A stretch of 64,000 nucleotides of DNA from assembly GCA_964016885.1 (NCBI GenBank), contig CAXHJY010001439.1, positions 248,001-312,000 of the forward strand, given 5' to 3'. The translations under genes and the position numbers were made by a program. The DNA is from Eledone cirrhosa. Its lineage: Eukaryota. The notes under the pieces are model-generated. The model was not told the origin of the DNA. It was given only the letters and a program-made list of their open reading frames with translations, and made no database searches. Below, one piece after another: positions 41,825-60,640 of this stretch. How positions within the stretch are numbered: the first letter of the stretch is position 1; every line of letters begins with the position of its first letter.

Positions 41825-43070
<1,246 letters not shown>

Positions 43071-43094
43071 TATCTAAGTATAGAGGAAGCAGAA

Positions 43095-47970: not shown

Positions 47971-48461
47971 CCTTTATACTAATTAGTCATTTATCTGCAT
48001 AAACATTATACCAGATCATTCTGATTATTGGCTTGAAATCTTTTACACAATTAGTATGAGCAACTAAGAGGTCATCAATAGAAATAGAATTACTTTTTGA
48101 AGTTTTCATGCACAGCATTTTTGGGGATTTTAAATAAAAGTTAATATCATAATTCTTATTTTGTATACCCACATTGCAGATACAGAGAAACATGACAATC
48201 CTATATAAAGGTCGTAGACAGCAGTATCAGTTGTTATCCGTAACACCATTGAAATGCACAAGTTTCACCAATTCACTATTATGCACTAATCATCTCAAAT
48301 GCATTCATGATTTACTAGCTTTGTCATTAAGCCAGTTGCCTCAACTAGATTGCAATTATACTCAAAAGAACTTTAAAATGTCAATCACTTGTCAGTAATT
48401 CACTATGATCTTTTAATTATTAGATAGTTGTTGCTTGCATTGCCTTAAAAAATAGTAGACG

Positions 48462-49482
48462 AGATAGAAAAATGCGTACAGCAAAAAAAAGTAATATTGT
48501 TGGAATATAAACCTTTAAAAATACAGGACAAGAAACTAAAATAAAACTTTAAAAGAATAGGACAAGAAACTAAGATAAAACTTTAAAGAATTGGACAAGA
48601 AATAAAAAATTTTACAATAATATTAGTGACAAAATTTTTTTATTCGTTTCCTGTGCTATGCCCCAGTATCTTCTTGATTAGTGCATAATAATTGTCATGC
48701 TCTCATTGTGCGTTGCCCCTGAGCGGTTGGTTCTGGTTGGGGTTGGTTGGCTGAGCAGTTCTGCTCCGTCAGAATGACCAGTGCAAGAGGAATTGGCCGA
48801 TGCAGCTGCAGGTCTCCTCCAAGAATGCACTTCTGGTCCCGCAACACCAGACGAAGATGGAGAAGACGACCGGGACAAGATGTCGACTCTGACCACCGAC
48901 TAAGGCACCTCCCTCAACCACCGGTCCTCCCTCCCTCTGTCCCGTCATCCCTCCAGTCCTCCTGCTCCCCCTTCCTGTACCAGAAAGCTGTGGCACGCAT
49001 TCATCTGGACTGCCGGACTTGAACTCAAGGACAAGATGCAAGGAGAAGATGGACGGGTTGGTCAAGATCAAGGATGAGCGGGACGACAAGACCGTCCGCT
49101 GCTGCTCAAGATCTGTGCTCATGGGCCCATGGGTCCATTCACATTATGCATGACACATGAGGCGTGTCGCCGAATGATGAAATAGGGGTATGGTTATGGC
49201 CCAATTGGTGTTCAAACCAGGATCAAATGATCCCCCCGGTCTGACGACGACGTCTGAATGTGGAACCCAGAGCCTATGAATGTGGAACTCGATTTTTTAC
49301 CAATAAAAATTTTGCCACTAATATTATTGTAAAATTTTTTATTTCTTGTCCAATTCTTTAAAGTTTTATCTTAGTTTCTTGTCCTATTCTTTTAAAGTTT
49401 TATTTTAGTTTCTTGTCCTGTATTTTTAAAGGTTTATATTCCAACAATATTACTTTTTTTTGCTGTACGCATTTTTCTATCT
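48462..49482. mobile_element. Non-autonomous long-TIR DNA element (178-bp TIRs, ~665-bp GC-rich interior)
   Basis: 48462-48639 is the reverse complement of 49305-49482, with one mismatch that I could see. Each TIR has three GGACAAGAAA sub-repeats at ~33-35 bp spacing. No clear TSD. Confidence 0.85.
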
Positions 49483-49489
49483 GGTATAA

Positions 49490-51953: not shown

Positions 51954-52184
51954 ATATATCGTATTTTTACTCCAACAATTTGTTGAGTGCTTTATATCAG
52001 TTATAAAAATATTTGCTTGTTGTATCCCAACAATTTAAATAGAATTTCTACATATATATATACTTAGGGTAAACATGGATGCAATTCAATTCAAGCACTC
52101 AACGTACTTATTCCACATAGGAGTGACGGAGTAAATATCGAATAAGGAAAAGCGAAGTAGTTTCAGATGTCTTTTAATAATAAT

Positions 52185-52365
52185 TGTTTCTACTTTAGGC
52201 ACAAGGCCAGCACATACCCAGTTCATTACTGGTACTTTATTTTATCGACCCCGTAAGGATGAAAGGCAAAGTCAACCTCGGTGGGATTTGAACTCAGATC
52301 GTAAAGGGACGTAACTATGCTGGAAAGCATGGCGTCCGACCCTCTACCGATACTGCCAATCCACC
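52185..52365 (-). mobile_element. Full-length tRNA-derived SINE with target-site duplication
   Basis: Minus strand: TGGCAGTATCGG (A box), GAGTTCAAATCC (B box), 'ggggtcgataaaataaagtaccagt' body. TSD GTCTTTTAATAATAAT at 52169-52184 and 52368-52383. Confidence 0.88.
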
Positions 52366-52630
52366 AAGTCTTTTAATAATAATGCTGTGATATATATTTC
52401 AATGGCGACAGTGGTCACACTGTTCCGTGCGCCAGTGTCACCACATCGTCAGACAGCTTTTTACATAATAAGGTTATGTTTCCGAGGCAATCCAAATCCA
52501 TGTCGATTCAATTTGGATTGCCTCGGAAACATAACCTTATTATGTAAAAAGCTGTCTGACGATGTCGCGACACTGACACACGGAACAGTGTGACCACTGT
52601 CGCCATTGAAATATATATCACAGCATTATT

Positions 52631-52715
52631 ATCCTTACGGGGTCGATAAAATAAAGTACCAGTAATGCACTGGGTAATTGCTGGCCTTGTGCCTAAAGTA
52701 GAAACAATTATTATT
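52631..52715 (+). mobile_element. 5'-truncated copy of the same SINE
   Basis: 'atccttacggggtcgataaaataaagtacc...gtagaaacaattattatt', flanked by ATTATTAT on both sides. Confidence 0.85.
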
Positions 52716-52753
52716 AAAAGACTTGAACATCTGAAACTACTTCGCTTTTCCTT

Positions 52754-54389: not shown

Positions 54390-54505
54390 ATTAAATCAAT
54401 GCTACAAGGAATAAAGGTAAAGTGGACTTTGGTGGGATTTGAACTCAGAATGTAAAGAACCAAAACAAACCTCACTTTGGCACTTTATCTGACGCACTAC
54501 CGATT
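54390..54505 (-). mobile_element. Old SINE head fragment (family of 52185-52365)
   Basis: 'aaggaataaaggtaaagtggactttggtgggatttgaactcagaatgtaaag' parallels 52255-52306. Confidence 0.7.
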
Positions 54506-54727
54506 ATCTATCTATCTATCTATCTTGATAGAGTAAGACACGCTTCGCATCGGCTCCGCTATTCCATCGGGATTTACCCTTACTATTGTAAGTACCGGAT
54601 ACATTTTTTAGTGCAACACATTTGGAACACTAACCCCTGTTATTTAGGGAAACATTTTTGCATTTACCCCCTTTTTAGGGAGTAAAATAAATATCTATTT
54701 TTGCCGAAAAATTTCTTTCTTGGCAGC

Positions 54728-56563
54728 ATGGCGGAAAAGATGGCAGACATGTCTGCCATTAGCTCTGCCACGCCCCCCAAGTCTGAAGAACAAAAAATAA
54801 TTACAACAAAATTAGACATTGAAACAAACAAACAAAATGAAAAAACAAATGTTAAGGAAAATGAGCAAACAGAAAACAAACAAACAGAAAATAATACAAA
54901 TAACGACAGGGCAACTTTCGCCCAGAAAACAAAACAATCCATTACATACACACCAATTGACCTAACTGCCGCCAGAGAAAAACTGGCCGAAGCAAAGAAA
55001 CACATTGTTTTGGGGGAGAACGGAATGTTTTCCATTAACTCCCCCCCAGAATTCAAGAAAGCCAGAGCAGAAAACACAGTTCTATACAGAACTATACTGA
55101 ACCAGACAAGAAAGCCAGCACAGCCCAGCCAAATGGAAATAGAGTTAGTCCTAAAAGATTATATGAAGAATATTCTCTTCATACGAAAGGACCGACTCTA
55201 TGGCAGCATTTCGGTCCTAACAAGAGACAAAGAAACGGCGGAGAAGCTTTCCCTAAGCCCACTCTCGTCGACAACATATAGCTTCTATCCCTCCTACATG
55301 GGTAGAAGAACACAGAGAGTAAAAGTAAAAGCAATGCTGCCCACAATGGACTTCTGGTGGGCTATTGCTGGCTTCATTGATATGGGCGAAGACACTATGC
55401 TGTCAATGGGGAAGGCAACTGGAGATGCGTTCCTGGGAATGGGCCTCGACATACTAGTCCAAATGAGGCCCGAAAGAATAGCACAAATCCCGGATCGCAT
55501 CTGGCTGGATGACCTTACCCCAATAGACATAATTGTAGAGGGGAGAAGACCAGCATGCTATTTATACATGGAAAGGGGACACGTTAAGGCTAACTGCCCG
55601 AAACGTATCCCCCAAAAAGGATTATTGCCCACACCCACCACAAACAGTACACCAGCACCACCTACCTCCAAAAATACACTAATACCACACACAGCAAACA
55701 AAATACAGACACCACCAACCACAAACACAACACAAACATCACCACCACCAGCACCAAACACAAGCACGACACAAAAATCACCACCACCAACCACAACACA
55801 AACATCACCACCACCATCAACAACCACAAGCACGACACAAACATTACCACCACCACCACCACAAAACCCATTCCAAACAAATAATAAAAAAAACAGTAAC
55901 AAATCTACCCCTCCCGCAAAAAAAAAACAACCACACAACACGTCCCTCCCACCTAGCGCTGAAGAGTTTCCCCCAACTTCTGAAGAAGAAGGAGGAGAAG
56001 CCTTCAGACAAGTTAAAAGAAAAAAAAGAAAACACACACCCAGCACACCACAAATAACCCACACACAAACACCAACTCCAATCAAAAACACCCCACCCTC
56101 AACAAACAAAAATAAATCTGCGCCTCCCCTCTCCGAAACATTGACAGCATCACAAAAAAAGACGTTGCAATACACATATATAAATAAAGAAAACAAAAAA
56201 CTGGTTAAATTAATAAACAATAACCCTATGGTGCAGACCGAAGGGCCAAACTTTATCTCAACAGAGAACTTCACCCATTTAAAAATGATAAAGGTCCCTC
56301 TGGACCTTTATCGTTCCTTAAAAGAACAATTTAGACGGGACGTGAGCCCCCCCTGTTTAAAACCGTTGAATCGCGTCCTCTTGAAAGATTTCCCCATAAC
56401 CGCCCCTCTCCCTGACACAACTCCAAATACCCCAACCCCACCACACACGTGTACCCCCACACCACCACAAAACATCCCTCCACCCAACACACCTGATGCC
56501 ATGGAAATTACGCAACCCGGAGAGGTAAGTGCTTTTCTTTCTTCACTTTCAACACCAAAATAG
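54728..56563 (+). CDS. LINE ORF1 (gag-like nucleic-acid-binding protein)
   Basis: Open frame from ATG 54728. Degenerate knuckle 'EGRRPACYLYMERGHVKANCP' (Cx2[C>Y]x4Hx4C), then a Pro/Thr-rich linker and basic 'VKRKKRK'. Confidence 0.85.
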   Translation: MAEKMADMSAISSATPPKSEEQKIITTKLDIETNKQNEKTNVKENEQTENKQTENNTNNDRATFAQKTKQSITYTPIDLTAAREKLAEAKKHIVLGENGMFSINSPPEFKKARAENTVLYRTILNQTRKPAQPSQMEIELVLKDYMKNILFIRKDRLYGSISVLTRDKETAEKLSLSPLSSTTYSFYPSYMGRRTQRVKVKAMLPTMDFWWAIAGFIDMGEDTMLSMGKATGDAFLGMGLDILVQMRPERIAQIPDRIWLDDLTPIDIIVEGRRPACYLYMERGHVKANCPKRIPQKGLLPTPTTNSTPAPPTSKNTLIPHTANKIQTPPTTNTTQTSPPPAPNTSTTQKSPPPTTTQTSPPPSTTTSTTQTLPPPPPQNPFQTNNKKNSNKSTPPAKKKQPHNTSLPPSAEEFPPTSEEEGGEAFRQVKRKKRKHTPSTPQITHTQTPTPIKNTPPSTNKNKSAPPLSETLTASQKKTLQYTYINKENKKLVKLINNNPMVQTEGPNFISTENFTHLKMIKVPLDLYRSLKEQFRRDVSPPCLKPLNRVLLKDFPITAPLPDTTPNTPTPPHTCTPTPPQNIPPPNTPDAMEITQPGEVSAFLSSLSTPK

Positions 56564-59500
56564 ATCAATTGAGAGTTGGCTGTTTGAACGCGCGTGGCCT
56601 GGGCTCAGCTTGGAAGCAAGCAAAGCTTCTAAGTGACCTCAGGTCACAAAGTATAGATGTGATGGTTGTTTGCGAGAGTCGGATCAGCAGCGTGAGACAG
56701 CTGGCGCCCGCCTTCGATGACTTTGAGATGCACGCATCTCTCTGTCAACCCGGAGGCGGGGGGGGGGGGGAGTTGCCGTACTGCTGGATAAACGTCTGAC
56801 TCTCGACGTACAGATTGTTCACTCGGACCCGGGGGGTCGATTACTGGTGCTGGACGTCGCTGGCGGTGAAGGCGGGGCTTTCAGACTGGTCGGTCTTTAT
56901 GCTCCCTTCGGGGCGGAAAGAGCCGACTTCTTCCAGCGTCTGGAGACTTTTCTAGGAACGTCGCGTTCCCTGCTTTTAGTGGGGGACTGGAATGGAATCC
57001 TAGATGCGCGTTGGGACTATGCAGGGGCATGTCCCGATAGAGGGGGGTGTAATAGCCTCAAGGGGTTACTCGATCGATTCGACCTGGTCGATAGATTTCG
57101 ACTAGATTGTCCAACTGCGCCAACCTGGACCTGGGCAAACCGCAGTGGACAATCTAGATCGTACCTAGATAGGTTTTTGGTTAGGAGTAAGGATAGGGAC
57201 GTATTTAGTTGTCCAGAACTGATCATGGTTGGCTATTCAGATCACAAATTAGTGACCTGCGTGGTCAACCTTGATAGAACGCATAGACAGGGTCCCGGTT
57301 ACTGGAAGATGAACTTGTCCTTACCGACAAAGAAAGATTACAGAAACCGGATTAGTAGCTTAGTTAAGATGCGGTTGACGGGAGCGATCGTCAACAGTAG
57401 GTGGTGGATATCTCTAAAGAGAGAGATTAGAGTAAGTTCGATAGGTTACAGTAAGGAACTAGCGGCGAATAGAAATAGGAGGGAAAGGGAGTTAACAGAT
57501 AAACTAGAAGAGGCGATTAGGAGCGGAGACGTAGCCAGAGTGTTAGCGACGAGAACGGCATTGAGCCAGTTCTTTGACGCGAAGCACGAAGGCTGCGTTG
57601 TCCGAAGTAAAATACGTGCTTTAGGAAACGAGGGGACCAAAGCTGTTAGCTGGGCCCGCGTGACAGAAGCCAAGAGTGGGATTAAATCCACCATTCGGTC
57701 TTTGCGAGACCAGGATGGACGGGTGATCCTTGAACCTGAGCGAATGTGCGAGACCTTTCAAAGGCACTTTGCTCGACTGTTCGGAGGTGGCGGGGGGCCG
57801 GATGGGGATGTGGACTTCGGTCCATACCTCGACGGTCTACCGCGTCTTTCGAGCGGCGAAGCGGAGTGCTGCGAAGGGCCAATCACAGCCACTGAAATCG
57901 GGGAAGCGCTCAGCCAATGCAGCAGACGCAAATCCCCGGGTCTCGATGGTCTACCATACGAACTTTATTTAGCTATGCCGGTCTTGTTCTCCGAACTCCT
58001 CGAGGCTGTCTATTGCAACTGGCAACAGAACGGGAGAATTCCCTGTTCTGTGACCAAGGGCGTGGTCACGCTAGTGAGGAAGGACGAGAGCAAGGGGGAC
58101 GACTTAAGTAACTTTAGGCCCATAACTCTGCTGAATGCAGAGTTACAGATTTTGGCCAAGGTGTTGGCGAAGAGGTTGGCGCTTGTGGTGGGTGGTTTGG
58201 TGGGAGACGCGCAGACATGCGCTATCCCGTCCAGGTCCATTCACGACAACCTCCACCTCATGCGATACATCATAGAGAGGGTTGGCTACGAACCCGGCTT
58301 TGGTGGGGCCCTGATCAACTTGGATCAATCTAAGGCGTTCGATAGGGTCGACCATGGTTACCTGGATGCGGTGCTAGCGGCGGCGGGCTTCGGACCCGTT
58401 TTCAGGGGCTGGATTTCTGCCATGCACAGTGGCAACATCTACTCTAGGATTAAAGTAAACGGCTACCTCTCGGAGCCGTTTCAAATCACCCGATCCATCA
58501 GACAGGGGTGCCCCCTCTCCTCCCTTCTGTACGTATTGACTCTCGAGCCACTGCTGCGGAAGTTGGAGTTGCTGCGGGGCATACCCCTGGAACCGGGATT
58601 GCACAAAGCGGTCTCGGCCTATGCCGACGACGTAACAGTAATGGTGGCAGACGCCTCGGAAATCGGGGCGATCGCCACCCTACTGGAGGAATACGAAAGG
58701 CTGACGGGGGCTAAGCTGAACCAGGACAAGTCAGTCGGTTTGCAACTCGGAACGTGGAGGGGCAAACCGATGCCGTTAGACGGTGTCGTCGGGCGGTGGA
58801 CGGAGGGCCCGGTGAAGCTGCTCGGGGTCTGGTTCGGACCGGACCTCCAGGTGGAGAAGAATTGGGGCGAGGTGACGAGCAGGGTGTTTGCGCTGACCCA
58901 GAAGTGGGCCAAGTGCAAACTATCACTGAAAGGTCGGGCGGAGGTGACGAACGCTTACATAGCGTCCGTCATCTACTACCGCCTGACCGTCGTGCCTTGC
59001 CCCAAGGAAAAGCTCACCATCATGGAACGCATGCTCTTCCAGTTCCTCTGGAAGAAGCGGCCTCCCATGGTGAGGAGATCCATCTGCTGCCAGCACCCTT
59101 CGAAAGGAGGGCTGGGTATGCCGTGGCTGTTGATGCGTAGGCACGCATTGAGGCTACGGCATCTACAGGTATTCCTCAACGGTCAGCCGGTGTGGGCCCC
59201 GTTTGTGAGGCGAGCCTTCCCACAGCTCGTCTCGCTCACCGAACTGCAATCCTGAGTGAAGCAAAGACCGAGAAAACTGGGCAACTGGCACACCGAGTGT
59301 GCCCAGGCGCTCACGGCTATTTGGCAAGCGGACCCGACTGTCAGTGGAGAATCCACCTCGACATTCTATAGAGGGTTGGTGGCTAGCAGGGGCGACGACA
59401 CCCTTGGAGAGTCGCTAGGCATGGAGGAAGACGAACTGGCTAGCCTGTTCGGTAGAACTTTCGGCCCGGGACCCATGGACAACTTCCAGAGGTCCCTAGC

Positions 59501-60002
59501 CTGGCAGTGTTACCGGGGGGCTCTGCCCGTTCGAGAAAAGCTCTACAGACACGGGCGCCCGGGCAGGGATCCCGCGAAAAAGATCTGTCCCAGATGCGTG
59601 CGCGACGAGGAAACCGTTGCGCATGCACTGGTACACTGCCCGGGCGTTGCCGATCTGTGGGGCTACGTCGAACGACTGCTGTCGCGTGTGGCGCCGATTC
59701 GATTAACCGCCGAGTCTGTGGTGAACATCAAGCCGCCTCCTCCCTTCAGAAATGAAGCAGAGGCGGTCTTTCTGTGCGTAATAGCCATGATGAAAGAGGT
59801 TGTGTGGTGGACGCGCCTGAAAGGTCTGAGGTCGGGTGACTTTCTCTCCGGCCATCACCTGGTTTACTTCTTCCGATACCACTTCGGAAGAAGAATCAGG
59901 ATGGAGAGAGAAGTGCTTGGTCCCAGACAGTTTTATGAAAGGTGGGTGAAAGAAGCGAGAATGGCCCGTGTAAATGGGCCTTCTCTCTACATTGTTCTGT
60001 AG
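56560..60002 (+). pseudogene. LINE ORF2 (AP endonuclease + reverse transcriptase + C-terminal zinc finger), disrupted
   Basis: EN motifs LNARGL, VCE, GVAVLL, LYAP, GDWN, SYLDRF, SDH. RT motifs SPGLDGLP, FRPITLLN, LDQSKAFDRV, RQGCPLS, YADD. C-terminal CPRC..ETVAHALVHCP. Frameshift in the G-run ~56758-56771 and in-frame TGA at 59253-55. Confidence 0.92.
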
Positions 60003-60240
60003 GTGAAGAAGTGAAGAGGAAAGGGGGAGCGCCTCCTCTCTGGGCTTCCCCCGCGAAAAGAATTGCACACTTTTCGGGGGTATGTGCAATCCCCAACACG
60101 CCCCCTCCCTTTTGAGGACTTTTATTGTTATATTATTATTGTTATTCCTTTTTTCTTTACTCGATTTATGTAAACTCCCCACTGTGTAAATGTCCCCTTC
60201 TTTTGTGCCCTCGTGGCAAATAAATAGAAATTTATCTATG

Positions 60241-60283
<43 letters not shown>

Positions 60284-60291
60284 TATATATA

Positions 60292-60580
60292 CCAGCAAAT
60301 TTTATAAAAGGTGGGTGAATGTGGCAAAGATAGTCCGAGTGGTTGGGCCTTCTCTCTATATAAGCCTGTTGGTGCTCCTGGAGATGAGGGTTGTACATTT
60401 TTTCGGGGTGTGTACAACCCCTGTGTCACGCCTCCCCCTATTGGGGATTTCAATTGTTATTTTTTATTTTATTAATAGTTATTAATAGTTATTTTATTAA
60501 TTTTATTTTCATATACCTGTATGTAAACTCCCCATTTGTATTTGTCCCCTTCTTTTGTGCCCTTGTGGCTAATAAAGAAA
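60292..60580 (+). mobile_element. Diverged 5'-truncated 3' fragment of a related LINE, ending in (TATC)n
   Basis: Encodes KFYKRWVNVAKIVRVVGPSLYI versus QFYERWVKEARMARVNGPSLYI in the full copy. Shares 'tgtaaactcccca..tgtccccttcttttgtgccct.gtggc.aataaa'. Confidence 0.88.
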
Positions 60581-60640
60581 TGTATCTATCTATCTATCTA
60601 TTATATATATATCATATATCATATTTATGTATTATATATA

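What the first reader, a model, noticed from the sequence alone, without database searches (positions are those of the whole stretch)
54505..60600. Tx1-like LINE with apparent (TATC)n/(GATA)n microsatellite targeting
Seen: the full element has (TATC)n on both sides in the same orientation, and a clearly diverged relative directly downstream also ends in (TATC)n. Established: several Tx1-clade families are sequence-specific (Kibi/Koshi for TC-type microsatellites, Keno for U2, Dewa for tRNA arrays, Mutsu for 5S). Inference: this is an APE-endonuclease family specific for GATA repeats. Whether it is already catalogued cannot be checked here.
Basis: partly seen in the sequence, partly recalled or inferred. 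Interest (0 to 1): 0.7.

Follow-up and report, generated by a model that had tools for sequence, protein, structure and literature searches.

The report
Octopod LINE inserting into TATC repeats
Two related jumping genes (LINE retrotransposons), probably from an octopus, sit in the same TATC (GATA) repeat tract, each flanked by what looks like a short duplicated landing site, likely because their own DNA-cutting enzyme prefers that repeat, a target I did not find in print for this known repeat-seeking kind of element.

Summary
Observation confirmed. A 5.7-kb two-ORF LINE (APE endonuclease, reverse transcriptase, C-terminal zinc finger; this copy is broken) lies between (TATC)5T and about 12 TATC units. 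A 291-bp 5'-truncated relative (79% identical) follows and also runs into TATC. New here: the truncated copy is flanked by an exact 27-bp direct repeat that includes the tract's unique end, so it is a separate insertion with its own target-site duplication. The full copy has a 21–22-bp candidate duplication. Neither has a poly(A) tail. Both 3' junctions are in the same TATC phase. TATC tracts cover 0.5% of the nearby DNA. Best reading: a microsatellite-targeting L1/Tx1-type family, like Kibi and Koshi, with a different motif. Limits: no genome was available, the read test gave no flank data, so my own evidence is two insertions. Tx1-clade membership and endonuclease specificity are untested. 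Nine literature searches found no TATC target; Repbase and Dfam could not be checked. The scan has reported the same kind of TATC-targeting family many times on other DNA of this genome and in another genome (AI notes, not tested here).

The parts
54406..54504 (+). Upstream flank: 3' part of a SINE-like interspersed repeat, ending abruptly at the TATC run
   Evidence: 83% over 52 nt to a second copy at 52255-52306; the alignment runs to 54504 and the other copy continues about 25 nt further
54505..54525 (+). (TATC)5T, candidate left copy of element 1's target-site duplication (21-22 bp)
   Evidence: 54504-54525 matches 60232-60253 with 1 mismatch; ambiguous because it is repeat sequence
54526..54727 (+). 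Element 1 5' UTR; begins with TGATAGA, an inverted copy of the flanking repeat
   Evidence: hairpin across the junction (whole stretch not more stable than shuffles, z 0.17)
54728..56563 (+). ORF1, 611 aa: RNA-binding/zinc-knuckle type N-terminal part (knuckle 55556-55597 with Tyr at the second Cys position) and a long Pro/Thr-rich low-complexity part
   Evidence: no Pfam hit; Atlas look-alikes zf-CCHC, RRM, ZCCHC3 at 0.90-0.92, a lead only
56566..57250 (+). ORF2 APE endonuclease domain; catalytic motifs LNARG, CE, YAP, GDWN, YLDR, SDH present; frameshift at the 13-G run 56758-56770
   Evidence: model of the part after the frameshift (pLDDT 70) best matches human L1 endonuclease structures
57251..60002 (+). 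Rest of ORF2: reverse transcriptase (YADD 58620-58631), copy-specific stop 59253-59255, C-terminal CCHC zinc finger 59586-59639
   Evidence: position 59255 reads G in nearly all laid depth in 4 of 4 runs
60003..60232 (+). Element 1 3' UTR: predicted stem-loop 60062-60090, AATAAA at 60219-60224, no poly(A)
   Evidence: 8 pairs kept in both copies, 2 with changes on both sides; only two sequences
60233..60291 (+). Shared tract: TATC, TATG, (TATC)10, TAT, TATATATA; its last 27 bp (60265-60291) are the left copy of element 2's duplication
60292..60582 (+). Element 2: 5'-truncated relative (last ~30 codons of ORF2 plus 3' UTR, stem-loop 60390-60418, AATAAA 60571-60576, no poly(A))
60583..60609 (+). 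Right copy of element 2's 27-bp target-site duplication: (TATC)4, TAT, TATATATA
   Evidence: exact match; the 15-mer spanning the out-of-phase step occurs only at 60277 and 60595 in the window

Best explanation
These are two separate insertions of related L1/Tx1-type LINE retrotransposons in one (TATC)n tract, and they likely landed there because the element's own endonuclease prefers to nick the (GATA)n strand of this repeat. Inferred steps: the RNA, bound by ORF2 protein (perhaps through the shared 3' stem-loop), is reverse transcribed from the nick on the GATA strand; the other strand is cut about 21-27 bp downstream; repair duplicates that stretch. This puts TATC on both sides in a fixed orientation without any element-encoded tail, and leaves the target intact, so later copies can stack in the same tract. 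Element 2 went in up to four units before the end of the tract, element 1 at its start; the order is not known. The nick phase cannot be fixed exactly, because the RNA may itself end in some bases of read-through TATC that pair with the primer. Shown: anatomy, the 27-bp duplication, same 3' phase, no poly(A). Inferred: the nick, who sets the specificity, family-wide targeting.
For: Exact 27-bp direct repeat around element 2 that includes the tract's out-of-phase end, found nowhere else in the window. 21-22-bp candidate duplication for element 1. Both 3' ends join TATC in the same phase, 8 and 6 nt after AATAAA, with no poly(A), although the copies are only 79% alike. TATC tracts make up 0.5% of nearby DNA, TA runs 18.8%. 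Endonuclease catalytic motifs are present and the fold is L1-like. The family is abundant and apparently young: 12,504, 2,596 and 53,009 contigs laid in three runs with different organism codes, and a 205-nt contig identical to the window at depth 3,528. Precedent: Tx1 families on (TC)n, (TTC)n, (TTCC)n/(TTTC)n, and target choice set mainly by the endonuclease (PMC4494074 passages and section 15); Tx1L endonuclease nicks almost only its target (PMC1950540 passages).
Against: Only two insertions, at one locus, chosen because they show the pattern. Element 1's duplication is all repeat sequence and has one mismatch, so it is not proven. Element 2's duplication could be as short as its last 8-11 bp, and its 5' junction lies in TA, so a TA or TATC/TA-border preference is open. 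The upstream SINE-like repeat lacks its last ~25 nt at the junction, which hints at a deletion and could mean element 1's 5' TATC was carried over from its donor site. None of the 24 loose ends shown (of 3,870) is a TATC run; they are best-supported ends from diverged subfamilies, so this is weak. No biochemical data.
Confidence: 0.72

Rival explanations
1. The preference for TATC is real but set at priming, not cutting. A loosely specific endonuclease nicks many AT-rich sites, and insertion completes mainly where a (UAUC)n end on the RNA (own tail or read-through from the donor tract) pairs with the nicked GATA strand.
For: No poly(A), both ends run straight into TATC. A role of 3' microsatellite-like RNA ends in choosing or priming sites is proposed for RTE elements (PMC6007223, abstract only). 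The predicted specificity hairpin of the endonuclease (ANRSGQ between WTW and SRSYLDR) is short and differs among close relatives.
Against: The duplications account for all flanking TATC without a tail. In known Tx1 elements the endonuclease is itself specific. It can coexist with the best explanation.
Confidence: 0.16
2. TATC is only an element-made tail. The family inserts in TA-rich or random DNA, and the 5' run of element 1 was carried from its donor or is coincidence.
For: Element 2's 5' junction is in TA and its duplication could be only 8-11 bp. The SINE-like flank is cut short at element 1's 5' end. TA runs are abundant here (18.8%).
Against: It needs element 1 to land at the very base where element 2's duplication begins, without a duplication of its own, or element 2 to land at the end of element 1's tail by chance; TATC covers 0.5% of nearby DNA.
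Confidence: 0.08
3. The arrangement comes from recombination between TATC tracts, local duplication or mis-assembly, not from two insertions.
For: The window is extremely repeat-rich; the 13-G frameshift could be a sequencing error.
Against: Element 2 is 21% diverged from element 1, so it is no local copy. An exact direct repeat with a unique step on both sides is the footprint of an insertion.
Confidence: 0.04

Closest known systems
Kibi (TC)n and Koshi (TTC)n, Tx1 clade, teleost fish (Kojima and Fujiwara 2004, seen only as cited in passages of PMC4494074 and PMC3812793)
   Same: APE-type LINEs that sit inside a microsatellite with pyrimidines on the sense strand
   Different: Target unit here is TATC; host likely an octopod; relationship to Kibi/Koshi not tested by a tree
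Crocodilian Tx1-1_Crp group on (TTCC)n/(TTTC)n (PMC4494074 section 15)
   Same: Tetranucleotide microsatellite target; the same paper describes tandem SINEU-3 insertions sandwiching a target-site duplication
   Different: Different motif and phylum; those families are close to Kibi/Koshi by phylogeny, which is unknown for this one
Waldo (ACAY), Mino (AC) and Dong (TAA) microsatellite-targeting LINEs (PMC3812793 passage)
   Same: Non-LTR elements inserting in simple repeats
   Different: Other motifs; other clades (recalled: R1 for Waldo/Mino, R4 for Dong)
Human L1 ORF2p
   Same: Best solved-structure match by profile (E 7e-110) and by endonuclease fold; two ORFs, APE-RT-CCHC
   Different: L1 has a loose TTTT/AA preference and a poly(A) tail (recalled); about 20% identity in the endonuclease
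L1-Tx1 families annotated in Octopus vulgaris (PMC13282606 passages)
   Same: 13 recently active L1-Tx1 families, 421 insertions, listed in Table 1
   Different: No occurrence of 'target', 'GATA' or 'TATC' in the main text; supplements not read; whether this family is among them is unknown

Membership tests
L1 group of APE-type non-LTR retrotransposons | ORF2 with N-terminal APE endonuclease, RT and C-terminal CCHC zinc finger | tested here: met
   Pfam hits, motifs, fold
L1 group of APE-type non-LTR retrotransposons | ORF2 closer to L1 than to R2-type elements | tested here: met
   Profile against PDB: L1 ORF2p E 7e-110, R2 E 4e-39; CR1, RTE, I and Jockey full-length proteins did not appear among the hits, so they were not compared
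L1 group of APE-type non-LTR retrotransposons | Separate upstream ORF1 with nucleic-acid-binding domain | tested here: inconclusive
   611-aa ORF1 with one degenerate zinc knuckle; no Pfam hit; Atlas look-alikes zf-CCHC/RRM/ZCCHC3 at 0.90-0.92
L1 group of APE-type non-LTR retrotransposons | Target-site duplication and 5' truncation | tested here: met
   Element 2: truncated, exact 27-bp repeat
Tx1 clade | RT phylogeny groups it with Tx1L, Keno, Kibi, Koshi | not testable with these tools
   No named reference sequence could be fetched. The quick tree of 53 of 90 sequences (89 stored proteins plus the window) puts it in a 34-row clade of unnamed relatives (SH-aLRT 100). Named relatives: Argonauta (64%), and turtle, fish, amphioxus, pseudoscorpion hypothetical proteins
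Microsatellite-specific Tx1 families (Kibi/Koshi type) | More than 20% of flanks of the family's copies hold the target (criterion in PMC4494074) | tested here: inconclusive
   2 of 2 copies in the window; no genome; read call gave no flanks
Microsatellite-specific Tx1 families (Kibi/Koshi type) | Target is (TC)n, (TTC)n, (TTCC)n or (TTTC)n | tested here: not met
   Flanks are (TATC)n, so it is not filed as Kibi or Koshi
Microsatellite-specific Tx1 families (Kibi/Koshi type) | Endonuclease nicks the target specifically | not testable with these tools
   Needs a bench assay

The most novel reading that the evidence does not exclude
An octopod lineage of young, abundant, tailless LINEs evolved (GATA)n specificity independently of Kibi/Koshi, regenerates its target at every insertion so that subfamilies stack in the same tracts, and has close sister families with other repeat targets. 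That would give a natural series for mapping how an APE endonuclease changes sequence specificity, and would make these elements a driver of GATA-tract growth in octopus genomes.
Probability: 0.35. Interest if true: 0.6.

Novelty: new variant of a known kind. Interest (0 to 1): 0.42.

Why it matters
Microsatellite targeting by APE-type LINEs is known, but its molecular basis is described as not well understood (PMC3812793 passage). A young, high-copy family with a new four-base target in a mollusc would add a testable endonuclease-target pair and could help explain how LINEs and GATA tracts cluster in octopus genomes. It does not change the known mechanism, so the interest is moderate.

Tried and rejected
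Whole genome: none held, so no copy census. No RNA holder listed among runs: no evidence on expression. Related loci: 80 metagenome loci at 23-43% identity, 0 of 80 with a TATC/GATA tract of 3 or more units, too distant to bear on the target; none in viral contigs or prokaryote genomes; 7 viral matches to a 17-base 3' UTR motif are chance, none followed by TATC. Rfam over 41000-64000: 93 sub-threshold miRNA matches, none reaching its gathering score. Earlier findings by sequence and near place: nothing. Tree: quick method only, no named Tx1 references. Cluster look-ups gave no Tx1 family names (timed out). Folding of the last 80 nt of either copy: no better than shuffles. Literature: searches found no report of a TATC/GATA-targeting LINE; the library lacks most subscription journals, the supplements of PMC4494074 could not be read and its Fig. 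3 target list is not held, and Repbase/Dfam were not available.

Full report
Observation. The window is microsatellite-rich animal DNA. The best named relative of ORF2 is a protein of Argonauta hians at 63-64% identity, so the host is likely an octopod (inference). The described features are present: (TATC)5T at 54505-54525, 12.8 TATC units at 60233-60283 and (TATC)4 from 60583. TATC/GATA tracts cover 79 of 16,639 positions of 41257-64000 outside the elements (0.5%); TA runs cover 18.8%. The locus was selected for this pattern, so the figure is indicative only.

Element 1 (54526-60232). It has a 202-nt 5' UTR, a 611-aa ORF1 with one degenerate zinc knuckle and a long Pro/Thr-rich part, ORF2 and a 230-nt 3' UTR. 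ORF2 matches Pfam Exo_endo_phos, RVT_1 and zf-RVT. The catalytic motifs of the endonuclease are present. A model of the endonuclease part after the frameshift (pLDDT 70) best matches human L1 endonuclease, and a profile of the family matches L1 ORF2p far better than R2. This copy is broken: a frameshift at a 13-G run (possibly a sequencing error), a stop at 59253-59255 and no ATG where relatives start ORF2. The stop is private to this copy: G stands at 59255 in 167,812 of 168,357, 255 of 259 and 344,605 of 348,317 depth units in three contig sets and in 1,861 of 2,054 raw reads. The family is abundant, has many subfamilies and occurs in runs with three organism codes; a 205-nt contig identical to the window has depth 3,528. 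Depth is not copy number.

Element 2 (60292-60582). It is the last ~30 codons of ORF2 plus the 3' UTR of a related subfamily, 79% identical (231 of 291 columns). The two 3' UTRs share a predicted 8-pair stem-loop with two compensatory changes (two sequences only) and a conserved last ~70 nt. Neither has poly(A): TATC begins 8 and 6 nt after AATAAA, in the same phase.

The junctions. Element 2 is flanked by an exact 27-bp direct repeat, (TATC)4-TAT-TATATATA, at 60265-60291 and 60583-60609. The 15-mer across its out-of-phase step occurs only at these two places in the window, and the other TATC tracts end differently. This is a target-site duplication of 8-11 up to 27 bp, and it shows that element 2 landed at the end of a TATC tract. 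Element 1's left run matches the start of its right tract over 22 bp with one mismatch. One tract of about 11 units and two insertions with duplications of 21-27 bp explain the whole locus with no element-made tail. The alternatives need extra coincidences. Against: element 1's duplication is pure repeat; element 2's 5' junction lies 8-11 nt beyond the last TATC, in TA; and the SINE-like repeat upstream stops about 25 nt short of the end seen in another copy, with the missing piece not visible downstream by eye, which hints at a deletion at or before element 1's insertion.

What could not be shown. No genome is held. The read call showed 24 of 3,870 loose ends, none a TATC run; they continue into diverged subfamilies and say nothing on flanks. 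The 80 metagenome loci are 23-43% identical and 0 of 80 hold a TATC tract, too distant to count. So my own flank evidence is 2 of 2 insertions at one locus. Clade placement is open: the quick tree (53 of 90 sequences, those aligning over 330 residues or more) has no named Tx1 reference.

Mechanism. Most likely target-primed reverse transcription from an endonuclease nick on the GATA strand, a second cut 21-27 bp downstream, and duplication of the target, which keeps it available for the next copy (0.72). The main rival is selection at priming through a UAUC end on the RNA (0.16); such a role is proposed for RTE elements (PMC6007223, abstract). The loop that helps set specificity in L1-type endonucleases (PMC1950540, passages) is short here and alike in the three closest relatives but different in the 42-46% group; this predicts nothing by itself.

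Comparison. It works like Kibi (TC), Koshi (TTC) and the crocodilian Tx1 families on TTCC/TTTC (PMC4494074, passages and section 15), but the motif differs, so it is not filed with them. A 2013 review passage lists ACAY, AC, TC, TTC and TAA as targets, not TATC (PMC3812793). An Octopus vulgaris repeat annotation lists 13 recently active L1-Tx1 families without a word on targets (PMC13282606, passages); the octopus brain LINE paper does not mention Tx1 or GATA (PMC9115989, passages). Nine searches found no TATC-targeting LINE. The supplements and Fig. 3 of PMC4494074, and Repbase and Dfam, could not be seen and may hold such a family.

Earlier findings. The scan reported TATC/GATA-targeting Tx1-type LINEs many times on other pieces of this genome and in another genome, some with counts of 1,400 to 3,400 copies and sister families on ATT or TC. 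These are AI notes that I could not test, and I could not confirm that they concern the same subfamily (sequence look-ups found nothing). They agree with my reading and supplied the sister-family idea in the novel case.

Verdict. A real feature: a new target variant of a known kind, well supported locally, unproven family-wide by my own calls. Interest 0.42.

Noticed in passing
window 1256-41256: A 40-kb satellite of a 9-bp unit (TGTTGGTGT, about 4,486 copies, 84% matches) with extreme strand skew.
   Followed up: no
window 54520-54532: Element 1 begins with TGATAGA, the reverse complement of the flanking repeat, forming a 6-bp hairpin across the 5' junction. Could be chance or a 5' end that pairs with the target; needs more full-length copies.
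   Followed up: partly
window 48456-49488: MITE-like element: 184-nt terminal inverted repeats, 98% complementary, 665 nt apart, with internal 34-bp repeats, between two TA runs.
   Followed up: no
window 52169-52722: Near-perfect palindrome (122-nt arms, 13-nt spacer, 52376-52632) nested in inverted copies of a SINE-like repeat (52169-52260 against 52631-52722, 97%), suggesting a fold-back duplication.
   Followed up: no
window 60768-63880: 3.1-kb (AT)n-type tract directly downstream of the two elements, with no LINE insertion in it.
   Followed up: no
window 42867-43076: A degenerate 52-unit TATC tract with no piece of this LINE family next to it by BLAST: an empty potential target.
   Followed up: partly
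window 60062-60090 and 60390-60418: 3' UTR stem-loop kept in both subfamilies with two compensatory changes; a candidate recognition signal for the reverse transcriptase.
   Followed up: partly
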